DNA of 63,356 nucleotides, counting the filler, from Basidiobolus ranarum (lineage: Eukaryota): assembly GCA_040143965.1 (NCBI GenBank). It is 55 parts of 55 records of this genome, joined end to end, with 100 filler letters (N's around TTAATTAATTAA, not from the genome) between each part and the next. Parts side by side here need not be neighbours in the genome. Positions count along the whole stretch, not along the records: positions 48,514 to 49,564 come from JASJQH010013551.1; 54 more parts are not named here. One strand, given 5' to 3'. Below are positions 3 through 63,195 of the stretch, piece by piece. The position numbers were made by a program, and so were the translations under genes. The notes under the pieces were generated by a model. The model did no database searches, was not told where the DNA came from, and saw only the letters and a program-made list of their open reading frames with translations. Within the stretch, counting starts at the first letter, position 1. Each line of letters starts with the position of its first letter.

Positions 3-434
3 CCGCGCACAAACAGACCTCAAAGGAAAGTGAAAACCTCTCCCGTACAAGTGGTAACATCTAGCAATGCAGACCTACAGACAATGCTCAATCTAGTTAA
101 CCAGCAACGTCAACAAAATGGTGCTGCTCCACTCAAACTCGACGATCATTTGGTACAGGCAGCTCAGAAGCATACTGATTATCAAGCTCGTGTTGGGCAA
201 ATGACTCACGATGAACCTGGAAGACCTTTAAGTACTCGAGTTACCGAAACTGGATTCAACTGGAGAGCTATCGGAGAAAATGTAGCCCAGGGTTATACTA
301 GTATCGAGATGGTCATGGAAGGTTGGATGAATTCCGCTGGACATCGAAGAAATATCCTCAACCCACAATTCACTTCCTTTGGTTCGGGTTATGTTGTCAA
401 TGGCAACTACTGGACTCAAGTCTTTGGTGCCTAA
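3..434 (+). CDS. CAP/SCP (cysteine-rich secretory/PR-1) domain protein, YkwD-like subtype, 5'-partial
   Basis: VNQQR..G..PL..D..L..AAQKH, MTHD, GENVAQG, WMNSAGHRRNILNP motifs; frame open from position 3; normal CpG content. Confidence 0.9.
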   Translation, partial: PRTNRPQRKVKTSPVQVVTSSNADLQTMLNLVNQQRQQNGAAPLKLDDHLVQAAQKHTDYQARVGQMTHDEPGRPLSTRVTETGFNWRAIGENVAQGYTSIEMVMEGWMNSAGHRRNILNPQFTSFGSGYVVNGNYWTQVFGA

Positions 435-2770: not shown

Positions 2771-3377
2771 ATGCTCTCCATCTACTCCAAATGGTCATTT
2801 GTCATTAATCCAAAAGCAACTACCGGATTTCCTATCACCACCCTAGAAGCTATATTTGAGAAATGCTGTGGCTCATATACTCCAATACCTACCAGAAAGC
2901 AGCTAGTCAATTTGTTTTGTTACTACAAAAACTATTGTCCAATCTGATTTCAGTGCACTATTAATGGTAGCACAAGTGGGAGAAGCTTCCATACCAGGCT
3001 TCAAGTAAGTGAGTATTATCTAGCTTTAGTGATGAATGATGTGGAAGGGGCCTGGGACAAAAGATTTAGAGACTCTAATATCCTTCCATTTCCTGGAGTA
3101 TATCCCAACAGAGTTCATAGCAGAAGTATTCTTGACACATTTCCAGTCAGAATTAACAGGCCCAAAAGCAACCAAGAGCTATTCTATTCTGGCAAGTACA
3201 AAGCCCACTCTGCAAAGTTCCAGGCTTTGACAGATATGGAAGGAAACATCATTTGGTTTGGTGGGCCACATCCAGGGAGACACCATGACAAAAGGCTTTG
3301 GGTTGAGAGCCATGCACCAGGCATGCACCAATTGTAAGATATGAGAAGACTATGGCTGATTTGGCATATGTTGGGGA
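2771..3377 (+). pseudogene. DDE_Tnp_4 (PIF/Harbinger-ISL2EU/PHIS) transposase, 3'-partial
   Basis: ILDTFPVRINRP, FYSGKYKAHSAKFQ, G.I.W..GP.PGRHHD, then frameshifted MADLAYVG; one in-frame TGA at 2945. Confidence 0.88.
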
Positions 3378-3477: not shown

Positions 3478-3624
3478 TGGATCAATATATTAGAGTAAAT
3501 GTGATAGAAATTGATCATGCCAGAGGGTGATGGATAGTGCCAAATTGTGCCACATAAATTTTAGAATACTTTATCCAATATGATATATCAAGCACAATCT
3601 GGCACTATCACCGGGAACAAGTCC
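3478..3624. mobile_element. Partial MITE (same family as 51112-51293) inserted in CACTA ORF2
   Basis: Ends GGGAACAAGTCC followed by ATT; reverse complement of the 51112 copy. Confidence 0.8.
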
Positions 3625-5793: not shown

Positions 5794-6208
5794 AGGACTA
5801 GAAACAACAACAAGAGGCTAGAAGGCAGGAGAGTACTTGGGTGCAGACCACAAGACAAGACAAGACTGGACAATGAAGATACTGTGACAAGAATCTTTAT
5901 TGATAACTGGCATTGATCAGACTGAGGTCTGATCAAGGAATACATGGGGCTTATATAGATATTGCAAGATGAAACATAGTATACTGAATAGGGAATATAC
6001 TGTGGCCAGTTTGAGAGTTGGGGTGTTGGGGACTACAAGGACCAATACAAAGAGGGATGATGTAAGGATGAAGAAAGGATGATCAGGTGACTTTCCATGG
6101 AAGGTCTTGGCAGAAATACACTATGTGTGGGATGACATGATTGGTTAGGTTACATGGAATGTTCTAAAGAACATGATCTCCATATAAGATAATCTGGATG
6201 AACTGACA
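5794..6208 (-). repeat. LTR-like repeat D, copy 1
   Basis: Diverged inverted copy of 6310-6640; starts TGTCAG on the minus strand; contains TATA-like CTATATAAG. Confidence 0.6.
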
Positions 6209-6290
6209 CCAGATTGCCAACAAGGGATGGCACAGCAGATATGATGTCATAATCTAATAATAGAGAAGTTCTATTTGTAGTGGATCAGTA

Positions 6291-6660
6291 TGTCAAGATC
6301 AGAATCATGACACATAGTGTACTTCCACCAAGGCCTTCCATGGCAGGTCACCTAATCATCCACACATCATCCCTGTTTGTATTGGTCCTTGTAGTCCCCA
6401 ACACCCCAATACTTGAACTTGCCACAGTATATTCCCTATTCAGTATATTATGTTTCACCCTGCAATATCTATATAAGCTCCACATATTCCTTGCTCAGAC
6501 CTCAGTCTGATCATCACCAGTTATCAAAAAAGATTCTTGCCAAAGTTTCTTGCCTGTCTAGTTTTGGCTTGTCTCTTCTTGTGGTCTCTACCCATGTACT
6601 CCTCTGCATTCTAGCCTCATGTCATTGTTTCCAGTCCTTGTGTGATTCCTTATTGGGACA
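6291..6660 (+). repeat. LTR-like repeat D, copy 2 (boundaries tentative)
   Basis: TGTC...GACA ends; inverted relative to copy 1. Confidence 0.55.
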
Positions 6661-8224: not shown

Positions 8225-9167
8225 CCCTAACAGAAATTTGAGGATTGTTATTGTAGGAAAACCATAACAATTTTAATCCATTTGGGATTGATAATTTACT
8301 TACCATCATAAAATCATCAAGTTAGATTTGATTTTAATCAATTTATTCAGTTTCAGGAGTGAAATTTCAAGATCTTGCAAAATAGTTGTACATGATTGGC
8401 TAAAATCTCAGAGAACTATGGATCAACACATGGGCAAAAGATGTAACTCAGATTTTACACAGTTACCACTTGAATGCTAATTTGTCACCTTAGAAATCCC
8501 TAGTCTCTTGGATATATTCTTGTGAATATTTTTATTAAGTTCTTCATACCCAAGGTTTAGCTCATACCCAACATGAGTCTGTATCAATATCCCCATCAAA
8601 GCCCACCATTGTATTAATGTTGCCAAATTAACATTCTTCCAGCTATCAGGGGGATACCCTGCAATATTGTGCCATTCTGTATTAAGTTCTTCCCAGATAT
8701 CTGAACAGTCAACACTGGACTGAATGTCAAGTTGAATGTTCTTCTTCTGAAGCCACTTTCTGCATATTTGCACTCTGTTTTTCCCTTCACACTTTTGAAA
8801 ATACTCCTCAAGCACTTTGACTGTTTTTGTCCATCCTTGTAGTGTGACACTACTGAGGGTGCTTTGCAGTGTTTGTGCGGCTTTTTGCTTGCCCTTAACT
8901 TTGGGGCTAATTTCAGCACTTTGAAAAGTACCAATTGAGGTTGGAGAGCCGTGAGTTTTATTTGCTGGTGTTGTGGCTGGTTCAGAGATGCTAGGTGTTG
9001 GACAAACTTCCAAATTTAGAACTCTTCCAACTGTTGGCACCTGGTTTCATGGTGAAATTAAGCTTTTTGCCAGTATATCTGAATTTGGAATTGCAGAACT
9101 TTGTAATGGTGTGAAGGATTTGTTAAGTGGGACAGCAGAGTCTAAACTCACTGGCTCCTTTGCTTTT
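8225..9167 (-). mobile_element. CACTA element: ORF2 C-terminal part (8477-9040) and ORF2-side TIR at 8225
   Basis: CCCTAACAGAAAT terminus; 187-aa open frame shared with at least 6 other contigs. Confidence 0.85.
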
Positions 9168-11583: not shown

Positions 11584-12530
11584 AATACTTCCAGTCTTTG
11601 AATTTGAATAAATGCCTAGATGAGTAGATATTGATGGGAGTCCTGGTAAAATATGATGGTATCTTGACATTTTCAAGCATTTTTGCAATTGATTCAAACT
11701 TTGATCCTATTGTGAATGGCTCATGGAGATTGAATTTTCCACTATATAGCTGAGTAAGTAGTATTGGAATGTTTTTGAATAGTATGTGCATAGTGCCTAA
11801 TGGGAAGCTCTGGCCCCAGCTGATCCTCTTTAGCAATATAAGCTTAGGCCTACAGCTAATACAAAGTTTGATGTTAGACAGACTATGTGATGAATTGTTA
11901 TCAGTGATCATATGGAAATCTGACCAGGCTCTTCATGGTAAAATCATGAAGTTTAGTGTTCTATTTTGATAGTAGTAATGCATATGCCTGATAGAGTAGA
12001 CTCTATTGATTTGACAAAATCTGCAGCAAGATAGTGCATTATGCCTACAAAAACCTCCAAGTTTACTGATGACAGGACTGTCACCAATACATATCATGAT
12101 ATTGGCTTCAATATAATATTTGCCCATCTGAGCCCCATTAGATAACCATTCAAATTCCGCAGTCAAGGGCTCCAAGAAGCTATCTATAAGCACTGGTGAT
12201 TTGGGTCCAGATATGATGGATAGTGTCAAAATATTATGACTCTTATACTGTTCAGAAAGAGGAAGATTTAAGTTGATTAAAATTATTGGCCAGCAAGCAT
12301 ATCCAACGATATAGTTGTTTAGTGTGAAACCATCAAGAGCCAATGCATGATCATATATGTTCTCAAAGAAACCTTAACTTTACAGATTCTGGTAGTGATA
12401 ACCATCAAGTATATTGATAATACCATCAGCTTAACAGTGAATACTTTGGTATTGAATCAATGAACTATATTTGGGTGTTTCATCAAAACTTTAAGTCAGG
12501 GACTCAATGGTATGTGAGCCAAATGCAAAC
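11584..12530 (-). mobile_element. CACTA/EnSpm Tnp2 (Transposase_21-like) core
   Basis: ALDGF, WPIILINLNLP, ISGPKSP..IDSFLEPL, IGDSP...KLGG, CRFC motifs. Confidence 0.9.
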
Positions 12531-16211: not shown

Positions 16212-17267
16212 TCATGCCACAAGACAAATGATTAAAGAAGCCCTGCTATTATTGTAACAAATTGTTGTGCTATGAAAGCTGGAGGCTTCATAGAAAAATT
16301 AATCACAAGCATGGTCACTGTAAAATGCCACCAGCTGCACAAAGCCTGGTGTATAACAACCGTAATAAGTGCACTAAATTGACTTTGGTTTTGCCTATTG
16401 CATGCACTGACTGTACTTTGCCTGAAAGTTTTGGTGACACTGCCAAAAGTCAAGATACCATGGAGTTACCACAGTTATATGAATAGAATGATATAGGTAG
16501 AAATGCTACTTTGGTCAAGACAGTAAGTCCAGACAACTTTGAGGACTTGCTGCTAGATGTTGACCTCACTTAGTCCAGTACCAATGGTAGTATATCAGAA
16601 GTTGAAGAAAAAGATGACAGCTTTGTTACAGACTCTTTGTTATTGGCAAGCAGTAGTCCACTCATAACATTTACTGTAAAGGAAGCTGCTTTGCTTATTG
16701 AGGAGTGGAGAGTTCAATCCAATTGTATCAACCAGGTATTTATTGGTTTTCTTACACTTTTACCACAGTTGATTGGCAACTGTTGCTTGCCACAGTCCTG
16801 GTACAAGTGGAAAACACTTGTCAATTGTTTGACTCATAATCCTTCAGTACTAGACTACCTTCATGTCCAAATGGTTTTTTGGCTCTTGTCAGTGATCTGA
16901 AAAGCCTGAAGCATGTGCTGTTTACACACAATTGACAATCACTGAATCAGGTAAATATTGCTCCAATTTGGCTTACATACCATTGATTTCCCATCTTAAA
17001 GTTTTGATGTAATCACCCAAATATAGATCATTGATCCAATACCAAAGTACTCAGCACAGAGCTGATGGTATTACCTATAAACTTGATGGATTTCACTACT
17101 AGAATCTGAAAAGTCAAGGTATCTTTGAGAACATGTATGATCATGCATTTGCATTGGCTCTGGATGGTTTCTCACTAAATAAATACACCACTGGAAAGGC
17201 TTGCTGGCCAATAATTTTAATCAACTTAAATCTTCATCCTTCTGAATGGTATAAGAGTCATAATATT
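16212..17267 (+). mobile_element. CACTA transposase gene, 5' third (ATG 16214), decayed
   Basis: Runs from the Cys/His N-terminus into FALALDGF...WPIILINLNL. Confidence 0.88.
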
Positions 17268-17367: not shown

Positions 17368-18423
17368 TTTACCAGGACTCCCATCAATATCCACTCATCT
17401 AGGCATTTATTCAAATGCAAAGACTGGAAGTATTGGATTTGTATATATTCAAGTGGAATTTTGAAAAGATTTCTGCCTGATAAGTATTGGCAACATTGGG
17501 AGTTGTTTGTGGATATTGTTAATATATTCTTACGGCATCAACTCACATTGGCAGATCTCAGGCAGATACAGCGACTGTGCAAAGATTTTGTAATTGGATA
17601 TGAAAAACTTTATTACAGGTTTAAAGAAGATAGACTGAATCTATGCCGGTATTCAATACATTCCCTGCTGCATCTTTCACAATGCTTAGAGATTATAGGC
17701 CCTTGCTATACATTCTGGGAGTTCCCAATGGAGCGCACCTGCGGTGAAATGATGCTCCGTGTGAAATTGTCAGTATTACCGTATGCTAATCTGATTAACA
17801 ATGTATCAGCAAAATCAGTGATGGATGTAATGCAATGGGTTAAGGAGACTCCAGAGTATATTCACCTGCCAACAAAGGGCTCTTTTCAATGTGCTCACGG
17901 GTTTTCACATTGTTTGAGCACAATAACAGCAACAAAGCCCAATCCATGGACACAGAGTAAGTACCTTTATAATCGGACTAATTTGCTTGTGTGATAATCT
18001 GACGGTTTTTTTAGGAAAGCTGCAAGACAGACTTCTTGGTGAGATAGATGGAGATACGCAGTATTATCGTTTTAGCCATGGGGTAATCTATTCAAGCAAT
18101 GACACATCTACTTGTGGCAGGACATTTGTTGACTGCAAGTCGGGGATATATTGGCTGAATTCTTTACGGAAATTTGCCAAAATCCAAGAGCTTATTCTCA
18201 TTGTGAACGGTAACAAGAGTCAGCTATTTGCCAAGTGTCAGTGCTATTCAAAATTTCAGATGTTTAGCAATTTTTCCACCATTAGTTTGCTGGTAAAGCA
18301 TATTGATGTTGTTGAGTTATGTCTAATCAGTCAAATATGTGCATATGTAGAGACTAAACACAACAAGATTCTTGTATTTTTTGATTCTCATTATGGCTGG
18401 AATACAAAGCCTAAAATATCTAA
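17368..18423 (+). mobile_element. CACTA transposase gene, 3' part (DUF4218-like), comparatively young copy
   Basis: K.KDWK.W, YEKLYY, HSLLHL..C...GP...WEFPMER; long ORFs; CpGs retained. Confidence 0.9.
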
Positions 18424-20835: not shown

Positions 20836-21541
20836 ATAGTATGATGGTATTTCTAGGAAAGCTGCAAGACAGACTTCTTGGGGAGATAGATCAAGATATG
20901 CAGTATTATAGTTTTAGCCATGGGGTAATCTATTCAATCAATGATACATCTACTAGTGGCAGGACATTTGTTGACTGCAAGTTAGGGATATGTTAGCTGA
21001 ATTCTGTATGGAAATTTGCTAAAATCCAAGAGCTTATTCTCATTGTGAACTGTAACAAAAGTCAGCTATTTGCCAAGTGACAGTGCTATTCAAATTTCAG
21101 ATATTTAGCAACTTTCCACCATTACTTTGCTGGTAAAGCATATTTATACTGTTGAGTTAAGTCAAATCAGTCAAGTATATGCATATGTAGAGACTAAACA
21201 CAATGATATTCTTGTATTGTTGATTCTCATTATGGCTGGAATACAAAGCCTAAAATATCTATATAAAGGCATGCATATTAATTGGAATTCCTACAACAGT
21301 AAACCCAGTGATTTGCCATTCAAAAATGATATTTTTGCAAAAATTGCTGGATATTGAAAAACGCATGCCAAATTTGAGGATCAAAATTTCAACATGTGCA
21401 AATACCATTAAGAAACTACCATCACACCATTAAAATCCGTGGCAGAGTGCAAGCCACCAATATTGTGATGGTTCTCTGATGGTTTTGCTCTTTTGGATGG
21501 TGGATCCAATCCAGATCCAATCAATTCTATTTTTGTTAGGG
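20836..21541 (+). mobile_element. CACTA transposase 3' end and transposase-side TIR
   Basis: Collinear with 18000-18423; ends ATTTTTGTTAGGG. Confidence 0.87.
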
Positions 21542-21991: not shown

Positions 21992-22572
21992 CTATCCATA
22001 TTTTCTACAGAGGGTTGTTCAATAGTGGGCAAAGTAGTCATTTTGGAAGTTGATGGTCTTGATGGTGTTTTGGTTGAACTTTGCTCAACTATTGATTTAC
22101 TAAGTAATTGCGGGATTACAATCTCTTCACTTGCACTATTGGTGGAAAGGAACATATCTGGTAAATTGATTAATGCTTCATCATTACTTGAGTTAGTTTC
22201 TGGCATGTTAATGCCTTGCAAAGTGGATAGTGGATTGCTACACTGCTCAACAATTAGGTCCTCCATTCTTGCTGGTTTTTTTCCTTTTATGCCAGCAGGC
22301 TTTGGCTTGGAAGCCAAATTTGACTTAGATTTTGAACACTTTTTGAATGGCATTGAAATTTTCAGATGGTAAACTTGGTCTAATGAAATTGCATAGAAAT
22401 AGCTTATAATAAACCAAAATTACCATCCATTACCAGAAATATCTTGTAAATCCCCTGATGAATCATCTGTGACACCATCTCAGAATCAGCTGATGATATT
22501 GATGGGCTGTACCTAAAATACCACCCTTACATGGGAGGTGTTCTTTTTTTAACAATATCCTTCTCATGCCAC
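21992..22572 (-). mobile_element. CACTA ORF2 N-terminus (ATG 22353) and divergent spacer
   Basis: MPFKK.SKSKS.LAS.PKP; collinear with 48775-49350. Confidence 0.85.
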
Positions 22573-23047
22573 TGTAGTGGTGTAGCATTGCTACCCACTG
22601 GCAGGTTGACTTACTTCCATTCCAAGCTGATATCATTAATATTACACAATTTATATATCATTATCCTTATTTGACTTACCCATATTTTCTAGCCAATCAT
22701 ATCACACTATCAGTATTAACCCCTATTATCTCAGATTTATCAGTATTAACCCACACTAGCCCTATTATTTTCTGGAAAATTCTACAATCTTCCAGAACTT
22801 TCCACAAGATACTTGGAATATTTGTTTATTGATTAAGTTTTGACTAATCAAAACTTGATTTTGCCTGAACAGTCCATGACTCTCTGGATTTTTCTACAAC
22901 CTTCCGGAACACTCTATGGATTACTAATCTCATGATTAATGATGATATCATAACCCCAGATCCCTACCAATAGAAATCTCTGGAACTTTCAAGATAACTC
23001 TCGTTAGAAATCATAGCTACCTTCATAAATGTATAAACAGGAGCCAT
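22573..23047 (+). repeat. LTR-like repeat F, copy 1, inserted at the CACTA transposase start
   Basis: Starts TGTAG; collinear with 23179-23652. Confidence 0.65.
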
Positions 23048-23178: not shown

Positions 23179-23779
23179 TACAGTGGGGCTGCATTGCTAC
23201 CCACTGGCAGGTTGACTTATTTCCTCTCCAAGCTCACATCATCACTATTGCACAATTTCTATTTTATTATCCATATTTGACTAACCCATATTTTTTAACC
23301 AATCATATTGAACTATTAGTATTCTCCCCTATTATCTCCAATATATCAGCTTAACCCACCTTAGCCCTATTATTTTCTGGAAAATTCTACAATCTTGCAG
23401 AACATTCCATAAGATTCTTGGTATATTTGATCATTGATTGAGTTTTGACCTAACAAAACTTGAATTTTCCAGAACAGTCCATCACTTTTTGGATTATTCA
23501 ACAACCTTCCAGAACATTCAATGGATAACTAATCTTATGATTTATGGAGAAATAGTAACCCCAGATCCCCACCAACAGAAGTCCCTGGAACTTTCCACAA
23601 ATTCTGATTAGTAATCATTTCTACCATCCGAAAAGTATAAATAGGACCCATATCTTTTCAAACAAAAATCATCCTAGTTTACAACAAACAATTACTACTT
23701 GTTATCACCTCTTATTTTCATCACTGCATACAAGAGCTTTGAAGAGGAAGCCCAAGAGAGTCAACTAGAGGCAGTTACA
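23179..23779 (+). repeat. LTR-like repeat F, copy 2 (3' boundary tentative)
   Basis: Homology to copy 1, TATA-like GTATAAATA, candidate end GTTACA. Confidence 0.55.
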
Positions 23780-30076: not shown

Positions 30077-31130
30077 TTTGGGACTAAATTTCGTAATTCC
30101 ACCAGATCTGGAGCTATGTGAAGGTTGCCTATATGGTAGGCAACACAGACAGCCGTTTGTGGGCTCTGGAATGAGCAAAATTGATCAAAAATTGGGCCTG
30201 ATACACTCAGATCTGTGTGGCCCAATGCAGACAAAATCCTTAGGCAGAAAAAGGTATTTTATGACCTTTATTGATGATAAGACAAAGTATACTTGGGTGT
30301 ACTTTCTGGCCAGTAAGGATGAAGCCTTTGATACCTTCAAGAAGTTCAAAGCAATGGTGGAGACTGAAACAGGTCTAAAGATTAAGATTATCTGTACTGA
30401 TAATGGAGGGGAATATACCTCAAAACTCTTCTCTAACTTCTGCTCAACACATGGGATAAAACAGCAGACTACAGTGCCATATTCTCCACAGCAGAATGGA
30501 GTAGCAGAACGTGCAAACAGATCAATAATGGAAAAGGCAAGATCAATGCTTCATGATCAAGATTTACCAAAACAGTTCTGGGCTGAATTGGTTGCAACTG
30601 CAGTATATATTAGGAATAGATGTCCTTCTAGGTCTCTATTGGCTATGACACCTTATCAAGCTTGGTTTGGAAGTAAACCTGATGTGGCTAATCTCAGAGT
30701 TCTTGAAAGTATCACTTATGCAATGATTCCTGACCAGAAGAGATCAAAATTAGACTGGAAAAGGCAGCAATGTCTTTTTTTGGGATATTGTGATGGGACA
30801 AAAGGGTACAGACTGTATGACACTGAAAATAAGAAGCTAATCAAGTCAAGGGATGTGGAATTTGCTGAAGAAGAAAAATTTTCAATCAAAACAATCCAGG
30901 ATCAAGAAAAACAACCAAAAATTGATGAAAATTCTTCTTTTTCTCACCAGATCCTGATCAGTGAGAAAAACATTGAAAATTTCAAACCCACAGTGTCCTC
31001 AACTGAGCCTGAGGTGGTGTCATTGCCTAAATTGGTACCAGAAGTTGTAGTGCCAATTTCCCATCTTAGGAGATCCAATTGGATGAGATCTCTGCCTGAT
31101 TACTACTCTCACACTAGCCAAAAGGAGCCT
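30077..31130 (+). mobile_element. Copia integrase, uninterrupted ~350-codon frame
   Basis: CEGC, HSDLCGP, TDNGGEY, PQQNGVAERANR, CLFLGY...KGYRLYD. Confidence 0.96.
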
Positions 31131-31913: not shown

Positions 31914-32282
31914 CTACAAGGCAGGGCAGCTGGAACACTTGCAGTCATCACCACAACAGCACACATTCTTCTTAGCATCGCATGATTCACACTTGCACTC
32001 TTCGCCACAGCAGCATTTGCTTTCCTTGGCTTGTTCACATTTGCAGTCAGCTCCACATTCACACTTGTCACCGCAAGTGCACTTGTTCTTCTTTACTTGC
32101 TCACATTTGCAGTAGGCTCCGCATTCACACTTGTCGCCACAGGTGCAGTTGGCTTTTTTGGCTTGTTCGCATTTGCAGTCAACTCCACAGTCACACTTGT
32201 CACCACAGGAGCAGTTAGATTGCTTCTTTCCTTGACAGTTGGAGCACTTGCAGTCACTTCCGCATTGGCAAGCTGGAACTTC
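31914..32282 (-). CDS. Long modular metallothionein-like protein, 5'-partial (122 visible aa, 35 Cys); absent from the ORF track
   Basis: Hand translation EVPACQCGSDCKCSNC...(CxCGDKCxCGxxCKCEQ)x3...CCCGEECKCESC...CCCGDDCKCSSCPAL*; repeats differ mostly at synonymous sites. Confidence 0.88.
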   Translation of the reverse strand, partial: EVPACQCGSDCKCSNCQGKKQSNCSCGDKCDCGVDCKCEQAKKANCTCGDKCECGAYCKCEQVKKNKCTCGDKCECGADCKCEQAKESKCCCGEECKCESCDAKKNVCCCGDDCKCSSCPAL

Positions 32283-39301: not shown

Positions 39302-40353
39302 CCTGGAAGAATGCAAGCCAGCAATATTGTGAAGGTTCTCTGATGGTTTTGCTATTTTGGAGGGTGGATCCAATCCGGATCAAATGGATTTTATTTTTGT
39401 TAGGGATGTGTAGAAGGTGATCTTCTTTCTACTGTATCCATCTCATGCTGCAACACAAATGTTTAAAGAAGCCCTGCCATTATTGTCACAAATTCTTGTG
39501 CTATGAAAGCCAGAGGCTTCATAGACAAAATAACCACAAGCACAATCACTGTACAAAGCCACCAGCTGCACAAAGTCTGGAGTATAACAACAGTAATCCC
39601 TAACAGAAATTTGAGTATTGTAATTGTAGGAAAACCATCACAATTTTAATCCATTTGGGATTGACTGTTTACTTACCATCATAAAATTTTCAAGTTAGAT
39701 TTGATTTTAATCAACTTTTTCAGTTTCAGGAGTGAAATTTCAAGATCTTGCAAAAAAGTTGCACACTAATGGCTAAAATCTCAGAGAACTATGGATCAAC
39801 ACTTGTGCAAAACAAGTAACTCAAGCTTTACACAATTACAACTAGATTGCTAATTTGTTACCTTTGAAATCCTTAGTCTCTTTGATATTTTCTCCTGAAT
39901 ATTTTTGTAGAGTTCTTCATATCCAAGGTTTAGCTCATAGCCAACACAAGTTGTGTCAATTACTCCATCAAAGCCCACCATTATATTAATGTTGCTGAAT
40001 CGACATTCTTCCAGCTATCTGGCAGATATCCAGCAATATTGTGCCACTCTGTATTAAGTTCTTCCAAGATAACTGCACAGTCAACACCAGACTTAGTGTT
40101 AAGTTATATGTTCTTCTTCCAAAGCCACTTTCTGCATACTTGCACTGTGTTTTTCTCTTCATACTTTTGAAAATATTCTTCAAGCACTTTGACTATTTTT
40201 GTATGTCCTTGTAGAGTGACACTACCTTTGGGACTAATTTCAACACTTTGAGAAGTACCAGTTGAGGTTGGAGAGCTACAAGTTTTATTTGCTGGTGTTT
40301 TGGCTTGTTGAGAGGTACCAGGTGTTGGATAAACTACCAAATTTAGTACTCTA
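39302..40353. mobile_element. Three nested CACTA pieces: TIR end (39302-39405), host transposase start (39406-39597), ORF2-side end (39598-40353)
   Basis: TGTTAGGG at 39405 and CCCTAACAG at 39598 flank a same-family segment. Confidence 0.85.
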
Positions 40354-40453: not shown

Positions 40454-41505
40454 AAGGAGGAAGATTTAAGTGGATTAAAATTATTGGCCAGCAAGCCTTT
40501 CCAACAGTATATTATTTAGTGAGAAACCATCCAGAGCAAATGCAAATACATGATCATATGTGTTCTCAAAGAAACCTTGACTTTTCAGATTCTGGTAGTG
40601 ATATCCATTAAGTATATTGGTAATACCATCAGCTTTATGGTGAGTACTTTGGTATTGGATCAATGATCTATATTTGGGTGATTTCATCAAAACTTTAAGA
40701 TGGGGAATCAACAGTATGTAAGCCAAATATCATCAATATTTACCTGATTCAGTGATTGCCAATTGTGTGCAAACAGTACATGACTTCAGGTTTTTCAGAT
40801 CACTGGTGAAAACCAAACAATCATTTGGCCATTAAGATAGTTTAATTACTGAAGGATTATAAGTCATACAATTGACAAGTGTTTTCCACTTGTACCTGGT
40901 CTGTGGCAAGTAACAGCTGCCAATCAACTGTGGTAAAAGTGTAAGAAAACCAATAAACACCTGGTTGCTAAGATTGGATTGAACTCTCCACTCCACAATA
41001 ATTGAAGCTGCTTCCTTTACAGTAAGTGTTATGAGAGGACTAATGTTTGCTGAGAACAAAGAGTCCATAACAAAAACGTTGTCTTCTTCTTTAACTTCTA
41101 ATATACAACCATTGGTACTGGAATAACCAAGGTCAACATCTAGCAGCAAGTCCTCAAAGTTGTCTGGCCTTACTGGTTTACCCAAAGCTGCATTTTGACC
41201 TACATCACTCTGATCATATAATTGTGGTAACTCCACAGTATCTTGACTTTTTGCAATGTTACCAAAACTTTGAGGCAAATGTTTGTGTTGCAGCATGAGA
41301 AGGATATTGTAGAAAAACAAACCCCTCCCACTTAAGGGTGGTATTTTAGGTATAGCCCATCAATATTGTCAGCTGATTCTGAGATGGTGTCACAGATGAA
41401 TCATCAGGGGATTTACAAGATATTTCTGGTAATGGATGGCAATTTTGGTTTATTATCAGCTGTTTCAAAGCAATTTCATTACACAAAGTTTACCATCCAA
41501 AAATT
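40454..41505 (-). mobile_element. CACTA transposase 5' third (with deletion) plus divergent spacer
   Basis: Collinear with 16420-17240 and 48780-48990. Confidence 0.85.
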
Positions 41506-48513: not shown

Positions 48514-49564
48514 TATAACTGTGGTAACTCCACGGTATCTTGACTTTTGGCAGTGTTACCAAAACTTTGAGGCAAACTATAGTCAGTGGACTCAATAGGC
48601 AAAACTAAAGTTGATTTAGTGCACTTATTACTGTTGTTATACATCAGGCTATATGCAGCTGGTGGCTATTTACAGTGACCATGCTTGTGCTTATTTTTTC
48701 TATAAAGCCTCCAGCTTTCATAGCACAAGAATTTGTGACAATGATAGCAGGGCTTCTTTAAATGTTTGTTTTGCGGCATGAGATGGATATTGTGGAAAAA
48801 AGAACGCTCGCACATAAGGGTAGTATTTTAGGTATAGCCCACAAATATCATCAGCTGATTCTGAGACGGTGTCTTCGATGAATTATCAGGGGATTTACAG
48901 GATATTTCCAGTAATTGATGGCAATTTTGGTTTATTACAAGCTGTTTCTAAGCAATTTCATTACACCAGGTTTACCATCTGAAAATTTCAATGCCATTCA
49001 AAAAGCAATCAAAATCTAAGTCAAAATTGGCTTCCAGGCCAAAGCCTGCTGGCACAAAAGGAAAAAAACCAGCAAGAACAGAGGACTTAGTTGATGAGCA
49101 GTCTAGCAATCCACTATCCACTTTGGGAGGCAATAACATGCCTGAAAATAACTCAAGTAATGATGAAGAATTAATCAATTTACCAGATGTGTTCCTTTCC
49201 AGCAATAGTGCAAGTGAAGGGATTGTAATCCCCCCATTACATTGTAAATCAGTAGTTGAGGAAAGTTCAACCAAGATACCATCAAGACCATCAACTTCCA
49301 AAATGGCTACTTTGCCCCTATTGAACAGCCTCTGTAGAAAATTTGGATAGAATTATTACAACTAGGGGTTGCAGGCAGAACACCATAATGATTTGTATGC
49401 AATCATAGGTAAAAACTATGAAGTTGCTATACAGGCCATGACAAGCAATAATGTGGCAATATTGCAATTAATGCAGCATTTGGAAGCAACTAGTTAACAT
49501 TTAGACAGTCACTCAGCAATGATATAAGACCTTCAAAATGATGTACTTGAGCTACAGCAACATG
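48514..49564. mobile_element. CACTA central region: transposase start (ATG 48779, minus), 211-bp spacer, ORF2 start (ATG 48991, plus)
   Basis: Both divergent starts lie within one contig. Confidence 0.87.
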
Positions 49565-49664: not shown

Positions 49665-50714
49665 ATAGCCCTGATTACTATATCAATGAGTCTCAAAATT
49701 GGGCCTATGCCTGCACAGCTCAAATACATGAACCCCAGACTGTAAAAGAGGCCCTGAATGGCCCTCACACAAAATATTGGAGATCTGCAATGGCTGATGA
49801 GTACCAGGCTTTGGTAAATAATCAAACTTGGATTTTAACCAACTTACCTGATGATAGAAAATTAATTGGCGGCTGGTGGATATTTAAAGTTAAGTACAAC
49901 TCTGATGGCAATATAGAAAGGTACAAGGCTAGACTAGTAGCCAGAGGCTATTCCCAAACACCAGGAATACATTATACCGAAACTTTTGCTCCTGTAGCAA
50001 AGATTAATTCAATTAGATTGATTTTAGCAATTTCAGCTAAATATCAGTTTAATATACATCAAATGGATGTTAAAACTGCCTTTTTGAATGGTGAGCTTGC
50101 TGAGGAGATCTATATGGACTAGCCAGATGGATTTGTGGACCCAGAAAACCCTAAAAAATTTTGCAGACTCCAGAAAACACTCTATGGCTTAAAACAATCT
50201 CCAAGAGCTTGGAATAGCAACATAGATGCTTTTTTGGAAACACTCAAATTCCAAACAAGTAATGCTGACTATAGTATCTACTTCAGGCCAGATAAGACAA
50301 ACCCAGTTTCATTAGCCTGATTTGTAGATGACCTTATAATAGCAACTGATGATTTGAAGACTTTGGAGAAAATCAAATCCAGCTTATCTGCCAAATTCAA
50401 AATGACTGATCTAGGTGAACTGACATACTATCTTGGGATCCAAATTAAGATAGATAGAACTACCAAAAAAATAACTTCAAACCAGTCTAAATATATCCTA
50501 TATATACTAAAGAAGTTTAAAATGGAAGAATGTAATCCAGTTTCTATCCCAATGGAGAAAAATCTTAACTTGACCAAAAATGGCTCAAATCAGATGGTCT
50601 TAGATTCAAATGAAAGCCAGAATTTTCCTTGTCAATCTATGGTCGATAGCTTGATGTATATCATGGTTGGAACATGGCCAGATTTTGCATATTCTTTGGG
50701 AGTTAAGTGCCAAT
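49665..50714 (+). mobile_element. Copia A reverse transcriptase
   Basis: YKARLVARGY, HQMDVKTAFLNG, LYGLKQSPRAW, FVDD, MTDLGEL. Confidence 0.95.
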
Positions 50715-54264: not shown

Positions 54265-54682
54265 GTAGATGTGTCATTGTTTGAATAGATTACCCCATGG
54301 CTAAGACAATAATACTCTGCATCTTGATCTATCTCACCAAGAAGTCTGTCTTGCAGCTTTCCTAGAAATACTGTCAGATTATCACATAAACAAATTAGTC
54401 CAGTTTATAGAGATACCTACTCTGTGTCCATGGATTGGGCTTGGTTGTTGTTATAGTGCTCAAACAATGCACCATCAATGAGCATATTCAAAAGAACCTT
54501 TTTTTGGAAGGTTAATATACTCTGGAGTCTCCTTAACCCATTGAATTATGTGCATAACTGATTTTACTGATACATTATTAATCAGATTAGCATACAGTTA
54601 TACTGACAATTTCATCTGAAGCATCATTTCACCGTAGGTGTGCTCTATTAGGAACTCCCAGAATATATAGCAAGGGCCTATA
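54265..54682 (-). mobile_element. CACTA transposase 3' part
   Basis: Reverse complement of 17695-18112. Confidence 0.85.
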
Positions 54683-62369: not shown

Positions 62370-63180
62370 CCAGTGTTTCCAACACTTTGTAAAGTGTCAG
62401 TTGAGGTTGGAGAGCAGCAAGTTTTACTTGGTGGTGTTTTGGCTTGTTGAGAGGTGCCAGATGCTGGATACACTTCCAAATTTAGCACTCTTCTAGCTGG
62501 TGTACTTGGTTCCATTGTAGAATTAAGCCTTTTAGTCAGTATATCTGCTTGTTTATCTGACTCTGGAAATACAGATCTTTGCAATTGTCTTATGAATTTG
62601 GCAAGTGGGAAAATAGTCCTAAGCTCACTGGCTCCTTTGCTTTTCCTGCTCCTGGAGTACTATGTCAGCTGCTTTTCTTTTTTTTCCAAGTCACTAATTG
62701 CCTACATTTTTGAGATGTTCCATGAATAGGACTACACTAGCCCAATTGTCCTTTGCTTGCAAAAACCCACAATAAGCCACATGAAATAAGTCAAGAACCT
62801 TTGGAGTAATGCCCGGTTTTTGATTTTCCTACAATTGGCTCAAATTGAGGTGATTTCAAGCAGGATACTCCACAGTATCCAAAATGTAAATCCACTCATC
62901 ATCAGAGCAAGTGAAAGCTGCTCTGACATTCAGAGTCTTTTGGAATGCTAGTTTTCCTAAGAGATTTATATTCCCATGTGCCCAAGCAATTTTGAATTGC
63001 TATGTATGCTTAATGGTCTGACAAATATTGTGCTCTGCTAGATTAATATGGTGACATATACATGTATGGTGTGGGATTGTTTGAAATCCTGAATAAAAAT
63101 GGATGGAGGGAGCAGCATGTTGCTGTAGCCTAGGTACAGCATTGTGAAGATCTTATATTGTTGTTGAGTGACTCACTAAC
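62370..63180 (-). mobile_element. CACTA ORF2 central part, bridging the N- and C-terminal fragments
   Basis: 63116-63173 matches 49508-49564; 62370-62640 matches 8905-9167. Confidence 0.83.
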
Positions 63181-63195
63181 TATCAGTGAATATTC

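What the first reader, a model, noticed from the sequence alone, without database searches (positions are those of the whole stretch)
48514..49564. A complete two-gene CACTA/EnSpm transposon can be reassembled from about 20 scattered contigs
Seen: two seemingly unrelated repeats end in CCCTAACAGAAAT and CCCTAACAAAAAT (12/13 TIR match). This contig holds the transposase ATG (48779, minus; N-terminal CxxC..H..H cluster) and the ORF2 ATG (48991, plus), 211 bp apart. Overlaps 49508-49564 with 63116-63173 and 62370-62640 with 8905-9167 chain ORF2 to one TIR. Contigs at 16212, 11584, 17368 and 20836 chain the Tnp2/DUF4218-like gene to the other. Estimated length is roughly 5 kb. Known: plant CACTA genes are co-oriented and start with CACTA; CCC termini occur in non-plant members. 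The divergent layout may define an undescribed fungal family.
Basis: partly seen in the sequence, partly recalled or inferred. Interest (0 to 1): 0.75.

Follow-up and report, generated by a model that had tools for sequence, protein, structure and literature searches.

The report
Decayed two-gene fungal EnSpm transposon
About a quarter of this DNA is broken copies of what tiles into one roughly 5.2-kb cut-and-paste transposon of a known group (EnSpm/CACTA), likely from a Basidiobolus fungus, whose transposase gene points away from a second, unrecognised gene that likely encodes a helper protein.

Summary
The window is 55 short contigs; 22 tile into a 5,167-bp path: end A, ORF2 (reversed), 211-bp spacer, transposase, end B. 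Seven A ends and six B ends (13-bp TIR, 12/13 match) all have different flanks; run X1 adds 58 and 83 such junctions. The transposase has Pfam Transposase_21, a D-D-E triad, CxxC and HxxxH motifs and a predicted RAG1/Transib-like fold. Its nearest named relative is from Basidiobolus ranarum (74%), a genus with already reported CMC-EnSpm expansions (PMC5751038). The divergent layout recurs in three copies. ORF2 (about 585 codons) is open in the consensus but has no recognised relative. Limits: the path is a mosaic of copies 78-93% alike; one link is a 58-bp overlap; no sequence holds both ends; the target-site duplication was not determined; Repbase/Dfam could not be checked. This scan has noted what reads as the same element at least 11 times on other DNA of this genome. 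Verdict: real, decayed, a new variant of a known kind, modest interest.

The parts
48514..48779 (-). Transposase 5' end; ATG at 48779; N-terminal CxxC-x11-H-x4-H cluster (C2H2-like, label recalled)
   Evidence: same start in copies at 16212, 39406-39597, 40454
48780..48990 (.). 211-bp spacer between the two start codons; inferred bidirectional promoter
   Evidence: crossed by copies at 48514, 21992 and 40454; promoter function untested
48991..49564 (+). ORF2 5' part (low-complexity start, then a likely coiled coil), with indels and stops in this copy
   Evidence: insertions relative to this copy seen in run X1 near 49326
62377..63179 (-). ORF2 middle part; the only bridge over path positions 1241-1414; this copy lacks 19 bp present in the copy at 3478 and is rearranged at 63179
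8477..9167 (-). ORF2 3' part, stop at 8479-8477; 189-residue stop-free stretch 9046-8480
   Evidence: 0 consensus stops in 119 codons at depth 4 or more
8225..8237 (+). Terminal inverted repeat, end A (further A ends start at 39598+, 53772+, 28258-, 36366-, 38773-, 46752-)
   Evidence: 58 contigs of run X1 with unrelated flanks at the A end
8260..8267 (+). Subterminal AACCATCA-type motif at position 36 of end A (weaker copy at 77)
   Evidence: within one mismatch in 6 of 7 A ends
16212..17267 (+). Transposase, N-terminal to first catalytic Asp region (degraded copy)
   Evidence: tblastn of P0001
11584..12524 (-). Transposase core: first Asp (LDG, near 12334), second Asp (GDSP, near 12082), CRFC at 12025
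   Evidence: Pfam Transposase_21 E 1.5e-13
17368..18423 (+). Transposase helical part: HSLLH at 17659, catalytic Glu (MERTCG, near 17731), predicted last exon after 18014
   Evidence: 94% identical to P0001 over 202 residues
17957..18014 (+). Predicted 58-nt GT-AG intron; removing it joins the two frames without a stop
   Evidence: matching donor and acceptor in the copy at 54265, acceptor in 20836; no RNA evidence
20836..21541 (+). Transposase 3' end and right subterminal region
21466..21484 (-). Two AACCATCA motifs at positions 58 and 69 of end B
   Evidence: at least one present in 6 of 6 B ends
21529..21541 (-). Terminal inverted repeat, end B (further B ends at 39405-, 44363-, 46305-, 34109+, 35068+)
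   Evidence: 83 contigs of run X1 with unrelated flanks at the B end
21992..22570 (+). Second independent copy of the head-to-head junction (ORF2 start, spacer, transposase ATG), cut by an LTR-like insertion
   Evidence: 89% identical to 48775-49350
40454..41505 (-). Third copy crossing the spacer into the transposase, with an internal deletion

Best explanation
These contigs hold decayed pieces of one very abundant transposon family of about 5.2 kb with 13-bp inverted ends and an EnSpm-type (Tnp2) transposase gene, which likely moved by cut-and-paste with the help of a second protein, ORF2, predicted to be made from the same short bidirectional promoter. Shown: the two ends, the tiling path, the divergent start codons, the D-D-E transposase motifs, an open ORF2 consensus, heavy CpG loss and stop codons in the copies. 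Inferred: (1) the transposase binds the CCCTAACA ends, cuts and inserts with a short target duplication, as its RAG1/Transib-like predicted fold and family membership imply; (2) ORF2 is a TnpA-like partner that binds the subterminal AACCATCA motifs and/or keeps the promoter active against host methylation (about even odds for this step); (3) host CpG methylation silenced the family, and the copies then decayed and were interrupted by copia, Harbinger and further copies of the same element.
For: Tiling: 22 of 55 contigs, both ends reached. Ends: 7 A and 6 B termini with 13 different flanks; run X1 shows 58 and 83 contigs leaving the element exactly at these bases with flank agreement 0.37-0.38. 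Abundance: 8,005 contigs of run X1 lie on the 1,051-bp finding (X1 may be the source sample, so not independent). Transposase: Transposase_21 E 1.5e-13 in the window, 1.9e-16 in P0001; P0001 is an uninterrupted 698-residue frame, 87% identical to the consensus over 515 residues, on a 5,233-bp contig, close to the tiled length; D260, D344, E609, C363/C366, H585/H589 invariant or nearly so in 18 relatives and present in window copies; model pLDDT 74, best PDB matches RAG1 (E 5e-12), ProtoRAG-type BbRAGL and Transib. Layout: three copies cross the spacer. ORF2: 0 consensus stops in 119 codons against 9, 7, 6, 7 and 1 in the other five frames; the frame runs through the 58-bp link and, using the copy at 3478, through the middle. 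CpG observed/expected 0.15 in the element against 0.54-0.79 in four contigs outside the repeat network. Host: P0047 from Basidiobolus ranarum, 74% over 114 residues, groups with P0001 in a 4-row clade with SH-aLRT 100. Role of TnpA in Spm: PMC1636069 passages.
Against: No contig, read or listed joint holds both ends; no target-site duplication was measured. The ORF2 link rests on a 58-bp overlap with a contig that is itself rearranged; path positions 1241-1414 and 1479-1628 are covered by one copy each. ORF2 has no Pfam hit of note, no homologue among 472 candidates, no Atlas hit at 0.8 or above and no confident model (pLDDT 42), so its helper role rests on analogy only. pN/pS did not separate ORF2's frame from control frames (0.54 against 0.54-0.88). 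Subterminal repeats are only 3-4 short motifs, far fewer than in plant elements. The predicted last exon scored no better than shuffles against a profile of 55 relatives' C-termini. No RNA run was listed.
Confidence: 0.72

Rival explanations
1. Same element, but ORF2 is a passenger or anti-silencing cargo gene unrelated to the cut-and-paste reaction, like the TET/JBP genes carried by rust and mushroom EnSpm elements.
For: Fungal EnSpm elements carry extra genes that are swapped between transposon lineages (PMC12730594). The host methylates this family heavily, judged from CpG loss. ORF2 shows no similarity to plant TnpA-type Pfam families and has its own direction of transcription.
Against: No TET/JBP or other enzyme family was hit. 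The low-complexity, basic and helical make-up fits a DNA-binding or scaffold protein (read from sequence). A two-ORF build is the rule for CACTA elements (PMC4158355 passages).
Confidence: 0.2
2. The 5.2-kb unit is a reconstruction artefact: an ORF2-bearing repeat and a transposase-bearing repeat, or two subfamilies, were chained through short overlaps in rearranged copies.
For: One link is 58 bp at 83% identity, in a contig with a TIR-free inversion-type junction; nothing spans both ends; many copies are nested or deleted.
Against: The ORF2 start and transposase start are joined in three copies; the ORF2 frame is continuous over the weak link; both ends carry the same TIR and the same subterminal motif; P0001 lies on a 5,233-bp contig.
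Confidence: 0.06
3. The family is already catalogued (Repbase or Dfam) or the divergent layout is common among fungal EnSpm elements, making this an ordinary member.
For: PMC5751038 reports huge CMC-EnSpm expansions in two Basidiobolus genomes and 28 fungal CMC entries in Repbase in 2016. 7,320 protein clusters resemble the transposase.
Against: That paper lists Repbase fungal CMC entries only for Basidiomycota and Mucorales as of 2016. Seven literature searches listed no description of this element; the library lacks most subscription journals and Repbase Reports.
Confidence: 0.25

Closest known systems
TRC elements: SmTRC1 (Schistosoma mansoni), Tribolium 5.2-kb and Aedes elements (DeMarco et al. 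2006, PMC1636069; passages and section 6 read)
   Same: Transposase_21 domain; termini beginning CCC (Tribolium CCCTA); short TIRs; similar size to the Tribolium element
   Different: Animal hosts; 2-bp direct repeats (not determined here); second proteins of SmTRC1 come from alternative splicing, here from a divergent gene; that paper could not define fungal TIRs
Maize En/Spm and plant CACTA elements (PMC4158355, PMC8978399, PMC1636069; passages read)
   Same: Tnp2-family DDE transposase plus a second ORF; TIRs with subterminal motifs
   Different: CCCTA instead of CACTA; Spm is one transcription unit for TnpA and TnpD, here the genes diverge; only 3-4 subterminal motifs; ORF2 shows no detectable similarity to plant ORF2 families
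Fungal EnSpm families of rusts and mushrooms, some with TET/JBP genes (Kojima 2025, PMC12730594; parts 1-3 of 7, passages, 14 supplement rows cut at 400 letters)
   Same: Fungal EnSpm/CMCT transposase with C(2)C and H(3-4)H motifs; extra genes within the element
   Different: The 14 EnSpm rows seen all begin CAC and are 10-31 kb; no TET/JBP domain found here; gene orientation in those families could not be read from the text
CNIRT6 of Cryptococcus neoformans (PMC12810828, passages read)
   Same: Fungal CACTA-superfamily element with DDE core
   Different: 7.5 kb, 24-bp TIR beginning CACTG, one annotated gene, still active
Basidiobolus CMC-EnSpm expansion (Muszewska et al. 2017, PMC5751038, passages read)
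   Same: Same superfamily and likely the same genus; PIF-Harbinger co-expansion is also seen in this window
   Different: Counted by Pfam domain; the passages read give no termini, second gene or layout

Membership tests
EnSpm/CACTA within CMC(T) | Transposase_21 (Tnp2) domain | tested here: met
   window:11936-12373 E 1.5e-13, 50.9 bits over cut-off 28.6; P0001 E 1.9e-16
EnSpm/CACTA within CMC(T) | D-D-E catalytic triad | tested here: met
   D260, D344 nearly invariant, E609 invariant in 18 sequences; present in window copies; assignment as the catalytic triad follows family knowledge
EnSpm/CACTA within CMC(T) | C(2)C and H(3-4)H motifs between second D and E (PMC12730594) | tested here: met
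   CRFC at 12025 and 34964, HSLLH at 17659
EnSpm/CACTA within CMC(T) | RAG1/Transib-like fold | tested here: met
   AlphaFold model of P0001, pLDDT 74; Foldseek best RAG1 E 5e-12, Transib E 1e-7; a prediction, on a close relative
EnSpm/CACTA within CMC(T) | Terminal inverted repeats at true element ends | tested here: met
   13 bp, 12/13; 13 distinct flanks in the window, 141 junction contigs in run X1
EnSpm/CACTA within CMC(T) | 2-5-bp target-site duplication | tested here: inconclusive
   No two ends of one insertion among 13 window ends or 12 joints in run X1; two earlier scan notes say mostly 4 bp, not checked
Plant CACTA (strict) | CACTA...TAGTG termini | tested here: not met
   ends begin CCCTA or CCCTG/CCCTT in 11 of 13; none begins CACTA
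Plant CACTA (strict) | TnpA/ORF2 co-oriented with the transposase | tested here: not met
   divergent in three copies; no Pfam match of ORF2 pieces
Plant CACTA (strict) | Subterminal arrays of several hundred bases | tested here: inconclusive
   only 3 exact and 1 near AACCATCA motifs within 110 bp of the ends
TRC (CCC-ended CACTA relatives) | CCC termini | tested here: met
   11 of 13 ends
TRC (CCC-ended CACTA relatives) | 2-bp direct repeat | tested here: inconclusive
   as above
ESTA / CNEST (TA-targeting CMC elements) | TA target duplication | tested here: not met
   1 of 13 flanks ends in TA
Plavaka | Plavaka transposase; TGT or CATCA termini | tested here: not met
   no such Pfam family listed for P0001 at E<=0.1; ends are CCC
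TET+ fungal EnSpm | TET/JBP dioxygenase gene | tested here: not met
   no hit in five ORF2 pieces scanned; degraded pieces lower sensitivity
A catalogued Repbase/Dfam family | 80% identity to a consensus | not testable with these tools
   no such library is offered

The most novel reading that the evidence does not exclude
This is the type member of an undescribed Basidiobolus-centred EnSpm lineage (long, well-supported branch of four sequences), with CCC ends, possibly a 4-bp footprint, and a head-to-head partner gene whose 585-residue product is a new class of transposon-encoded end-binding or anti-methylation protein, co-expressed from a 211-bp bidirectional promoter.
Probability: 0.3. Interest if true: 0.55.

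Novelty: new variant of a known kind. Interest (0 to 1): 0.3.

Why it matters
It gives the anatomy (ends, genes, intron, motifs) of a repeat that makes up 28% of this window and likely a large share of the repeat-rich, poorly assembled part of a Basidiobolus-type genome, which is useful for masking and annotation. If ORF2 proves to be a helper or anti-silencing factor, it would be a new example of how EnSpm elements outside plants replace TnpA. The superfamily, the CCC ends and the expansion in this genus are already known, so the gain is incremental.

Tried and rejected
No genome was held, so full copies could not be sought. Metagenome scans found nothing: 0 relatives among 588 pattern matches and 0 matches to an end-A pattern. 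Scans with alignment A1 did not run. Target-site duplication: a 336-bp stretch holding both ends was laid on run X1 to find paired joints; 12 joints listed, no pair; flanks of 13 window ends gave no pair and no clear target motif. Two joints from end B straight to end A (side 24, letters between unknown) are too weak to read. No RNA holder listed. ORF2: Pfam, homologue search, Atlas (best 0.79, treated as chance), scan look-up by sequence and a single-sequence model (pLDDT 42; not fold-searched) were blank; the middle part of ORF2 stayed unsearched in the Atlas. pN/pS among copies did not discriminate frames. The first intron script picked a wrong acceptor and was redone. The predicted last exon did not beat 1,000 shuffles against relatives' C-termini. 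PDB sequence search with A1 gave only chance hits. Self-targeting: 6 of 13 ends lie in another copy of the element, P=0.14 given a 29% share, rejected as unproven. A suspected second CAC-ended element at 22571 reads better as an LTR start. The tree used 140 of 157 rows (17 covered under 300 profile positions), quick mode, no bootstrap, midpoint root, few named rows; it places the family but cannot name clades. No tRNA in the window.

Full report
What the window is. It consists of 55 contigs of 1,048-1,059 bp joined by N-linkers; no whole genome is held. An all-against-all comparison links 50 of the 55 into one repeat network (output partly cut). CpG is depleted window-wide (observed/expected 0.16). 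Most contigs are junctions between decayed transposons, as expected for the leftovers of a short-read assembly (inference).

Checking the observation. The order is end A, ORF2 on the reverse strand, a spacer, the transposase forward, end B. Seven A ends and six B ends were found, and similarity between copies stops exactly at the first C in each, with 13 different flanks. The two ends share 12 of 13 bases; 0 of 200,000 random pairs do. In public run X1, 58 contigs leave the element at the A end and 83 at the B end, with flank agreement of only 0.37-0.38; 8,005 contigs lie on the finding's 1,051 bases. X1 may be the source sample and is not independent. The start codons are at 48779 and 48991, 211 bp apart; copies at 21992 and 40454 also cross the spacer, so the divergent layout is not a one-copy rearrangement. 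Weak points: copies are 78-93% identical (72 pairs), so the path is a mosaic; positions 1241-1414 and 1479-1628 have one copy each; the link between 48514 and 62309 is 48 of 58 bases, and contig 62309 is itself rearranged just beyond it. In favour of the link, the ORF2 frame reads through it. The copy at 3478 has 19 bases missing from 62309, so the true length is near 5.19 kb. P0001, an uninterrupted 698-residue transposase 87% identical to the consensus core, lies on a 5,233-bp public contig; its DNA was not seen.

The transposase. Pfam gives Transposase_21 above cut-off for a window piece and for P0001, DUF1258 weaker, and no DUF4218; DUF4218 appears in 8 of the 9 relatives scanned, above cut-off in one. 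In 18 aligned sequences D260, D344, E609, the CxxC and the HxxxH motifs are invariant or nearly so, and all occur in window copies. These are the motifs that PMC12730594 gives for the CMCT clade. The model of P0001 (pLDDT 74) matches RAG1 (E 5e-12), BbRAGL and Transib. A 58-nt GT-AG intron at 17957-18014 joins the frame to a further 136 codons without a stop; the same splice signals occur in two more copies. There is no RNA evidence, and the last exon showed no measurable similarity to relatives. 7,320 clusters resemble P0001. Of ten top hits looked up, two clusters carried species names: Basidiobolus ranarum (74% over 114 residues) and Ceratobasidium. In a quick tree of 140 of 157 rows, P0001, the B. 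ranarum fragment and two unnamed proteins form a clade with SH-aLRT 100 on a long branch. The host is therefore likely Basidiobolus or a close relative (inference); a CAP-domain gene and a CFEM-like lead fit a fungus.

ORF2. From ATG to stop it spans 1,736 path bases plus the 19-base gap and small indels, about 585 codons. In the deeply covered 3' part the consensus has 0 stops in 119 codons, against 9, 7, 6, 7 and 1 in the other frames; individual copies carry private stops. It was therefore intact in the active element (inference). pN/pS did not separate frames. By eye it has a low-complexity start, a likely coiled coil, a helical middle part ending in a basic patch, and a helical C-terminal part. 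Pfam, a homologue search, the Atlas and a single-sequence model gave nothing; these used fragments, so the blank is weak evidence. AACCATCA occurs exactly three times in the consensus, all within 110 bp of the ends and pointing inward, a plausible binding site.

How it likely works. Shown: ends, genes, motifs, decay. Inferred: cut-and-paste by the DDE transposase; co-expression of both genes from the spacer; ORF2 as a TnpA-like partner. TnpA is needed for Spm transposition and reactivates the methylated promoter (PMC1636069 passages); the analogy is by position and build only, so I give this step about even odds against a cargo or anti-silencing role. CpG observed/expected is 0.15 in the element and 0.54-0.79 in four contigs outside the network, which fits silencing by methylation followed by decay.

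Target-site duplication. Not determined: no two window ends belong to one insertion, and 12 joints in run X1 gave no pair. Only 1 of 13 flanks ends in TA, which excludes TA-targeting groups. Two earlier scan notes report mostly 4 bp; I could not check this. It would lie within the 2-5 bp given for CMCT.

Comparison with what is known. [quoted passage not shown] CCC ends with 2-bp repeats are described for animal TRC elements, with no fungal TIRs defined (PMC1636069, passages and section 6). Fungal EnSpm families with defined ends that I saw begin CAC: 14 rust rows in the supplement of PMC12730594 (28 of 60 places, cells cut at 400 letters) and CNIRT6 (PMC12810828, passages). Plant elements have two ORFs, CACTA ends, 3-bp duplications and long subterminal arrays (PMC4158355, PMC8978399, passages). 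Seven searches listed no paper on this element or on a divergent two-gene fungal EnSpm; the library lacks most subscription journals, Repbase and Dfam were not available, and unread supplements of PMC5751038 and PMC12730594 may bear on this. It works like En/Spm and belongs to the EnSpm/CMC group; it is not a strict plant-type CACTA.

Earlier scan notes. Eleven distinct notes on other pieces of this genome describe what reads as the same element; matched by description, not by sequence. My reading was formed before I saw them. They add two unverified leads: a 4-bp footprint and distant ORF2 relatives.

Verdict. A real, abundant, decayed EnSpm-type family with a divergent orphan gene: new variant of a known kind, interest 0.3.

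Noticed in passing
window 63179-63182: ORF2 middle is joined to the transposase middle in inverted order with no TIR at the junction: a rearranged copy.
   Followed up: partly
window 39302-40353: End B, 192 bp of the transposase start of a third copy, then end A: two insertions close together inside another copy; 6 of 13 ends in the window sit in the same family (P=0.14).
   Followed up: partly
window 3914, 6727, 24103, 51787, 52295, 54687; 2948-3334: A second DNA transposon with a GGGAAAATATGGGC end (6 copies, 5 preceded by ATT) and a DDE_Tnp_4 fragment (E 8.8e-12): likely PIF/Harbinger.
   Followed up: partly
window 30078-31130, 1160-2218, 49665-50714 and others: Many Ty1/copia-type fragments (rve E 1.4e-15, SH3_retrovirus E 1.2e-25; gag- and RT-like frames read by eye); the 30078 frame is open for 351 codons.
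   Followed up: no
window 22571-23047 and 23182-23651: An LTR-like repeat starting TG, inserted a few bases after the transposase ATG in the copy at 21992.
   Followed up: partly
window 3-431 and 743-1057: Host genes: a CAP-domain protein (E 2.5e-22) and a small secreted Cys-rich protein with a CFEM-like Atlas lead (0.86); CpG not depleted here.
   Followed up: partly
window 31917-32282 (minus): A 122-residue Cys-rich repetitive frame resembling a metallothionein (by eye).
   Followed up: no
window 5794-6638: An inverted duplication of about 340 bp at 82% identity inside one contig.
   Followed up: no
window 48780-48990: 4 of the contig's 6 CpGs lie in the 211-bp spacer (hand count), a weak hint of a CpG-richer promoter.
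   Followed up: no
window 21492-21511 (end B, positions 31-41): End B carries GGATTGGATCCA-type short palindromic motifs absent from end A.
   Followed up: no
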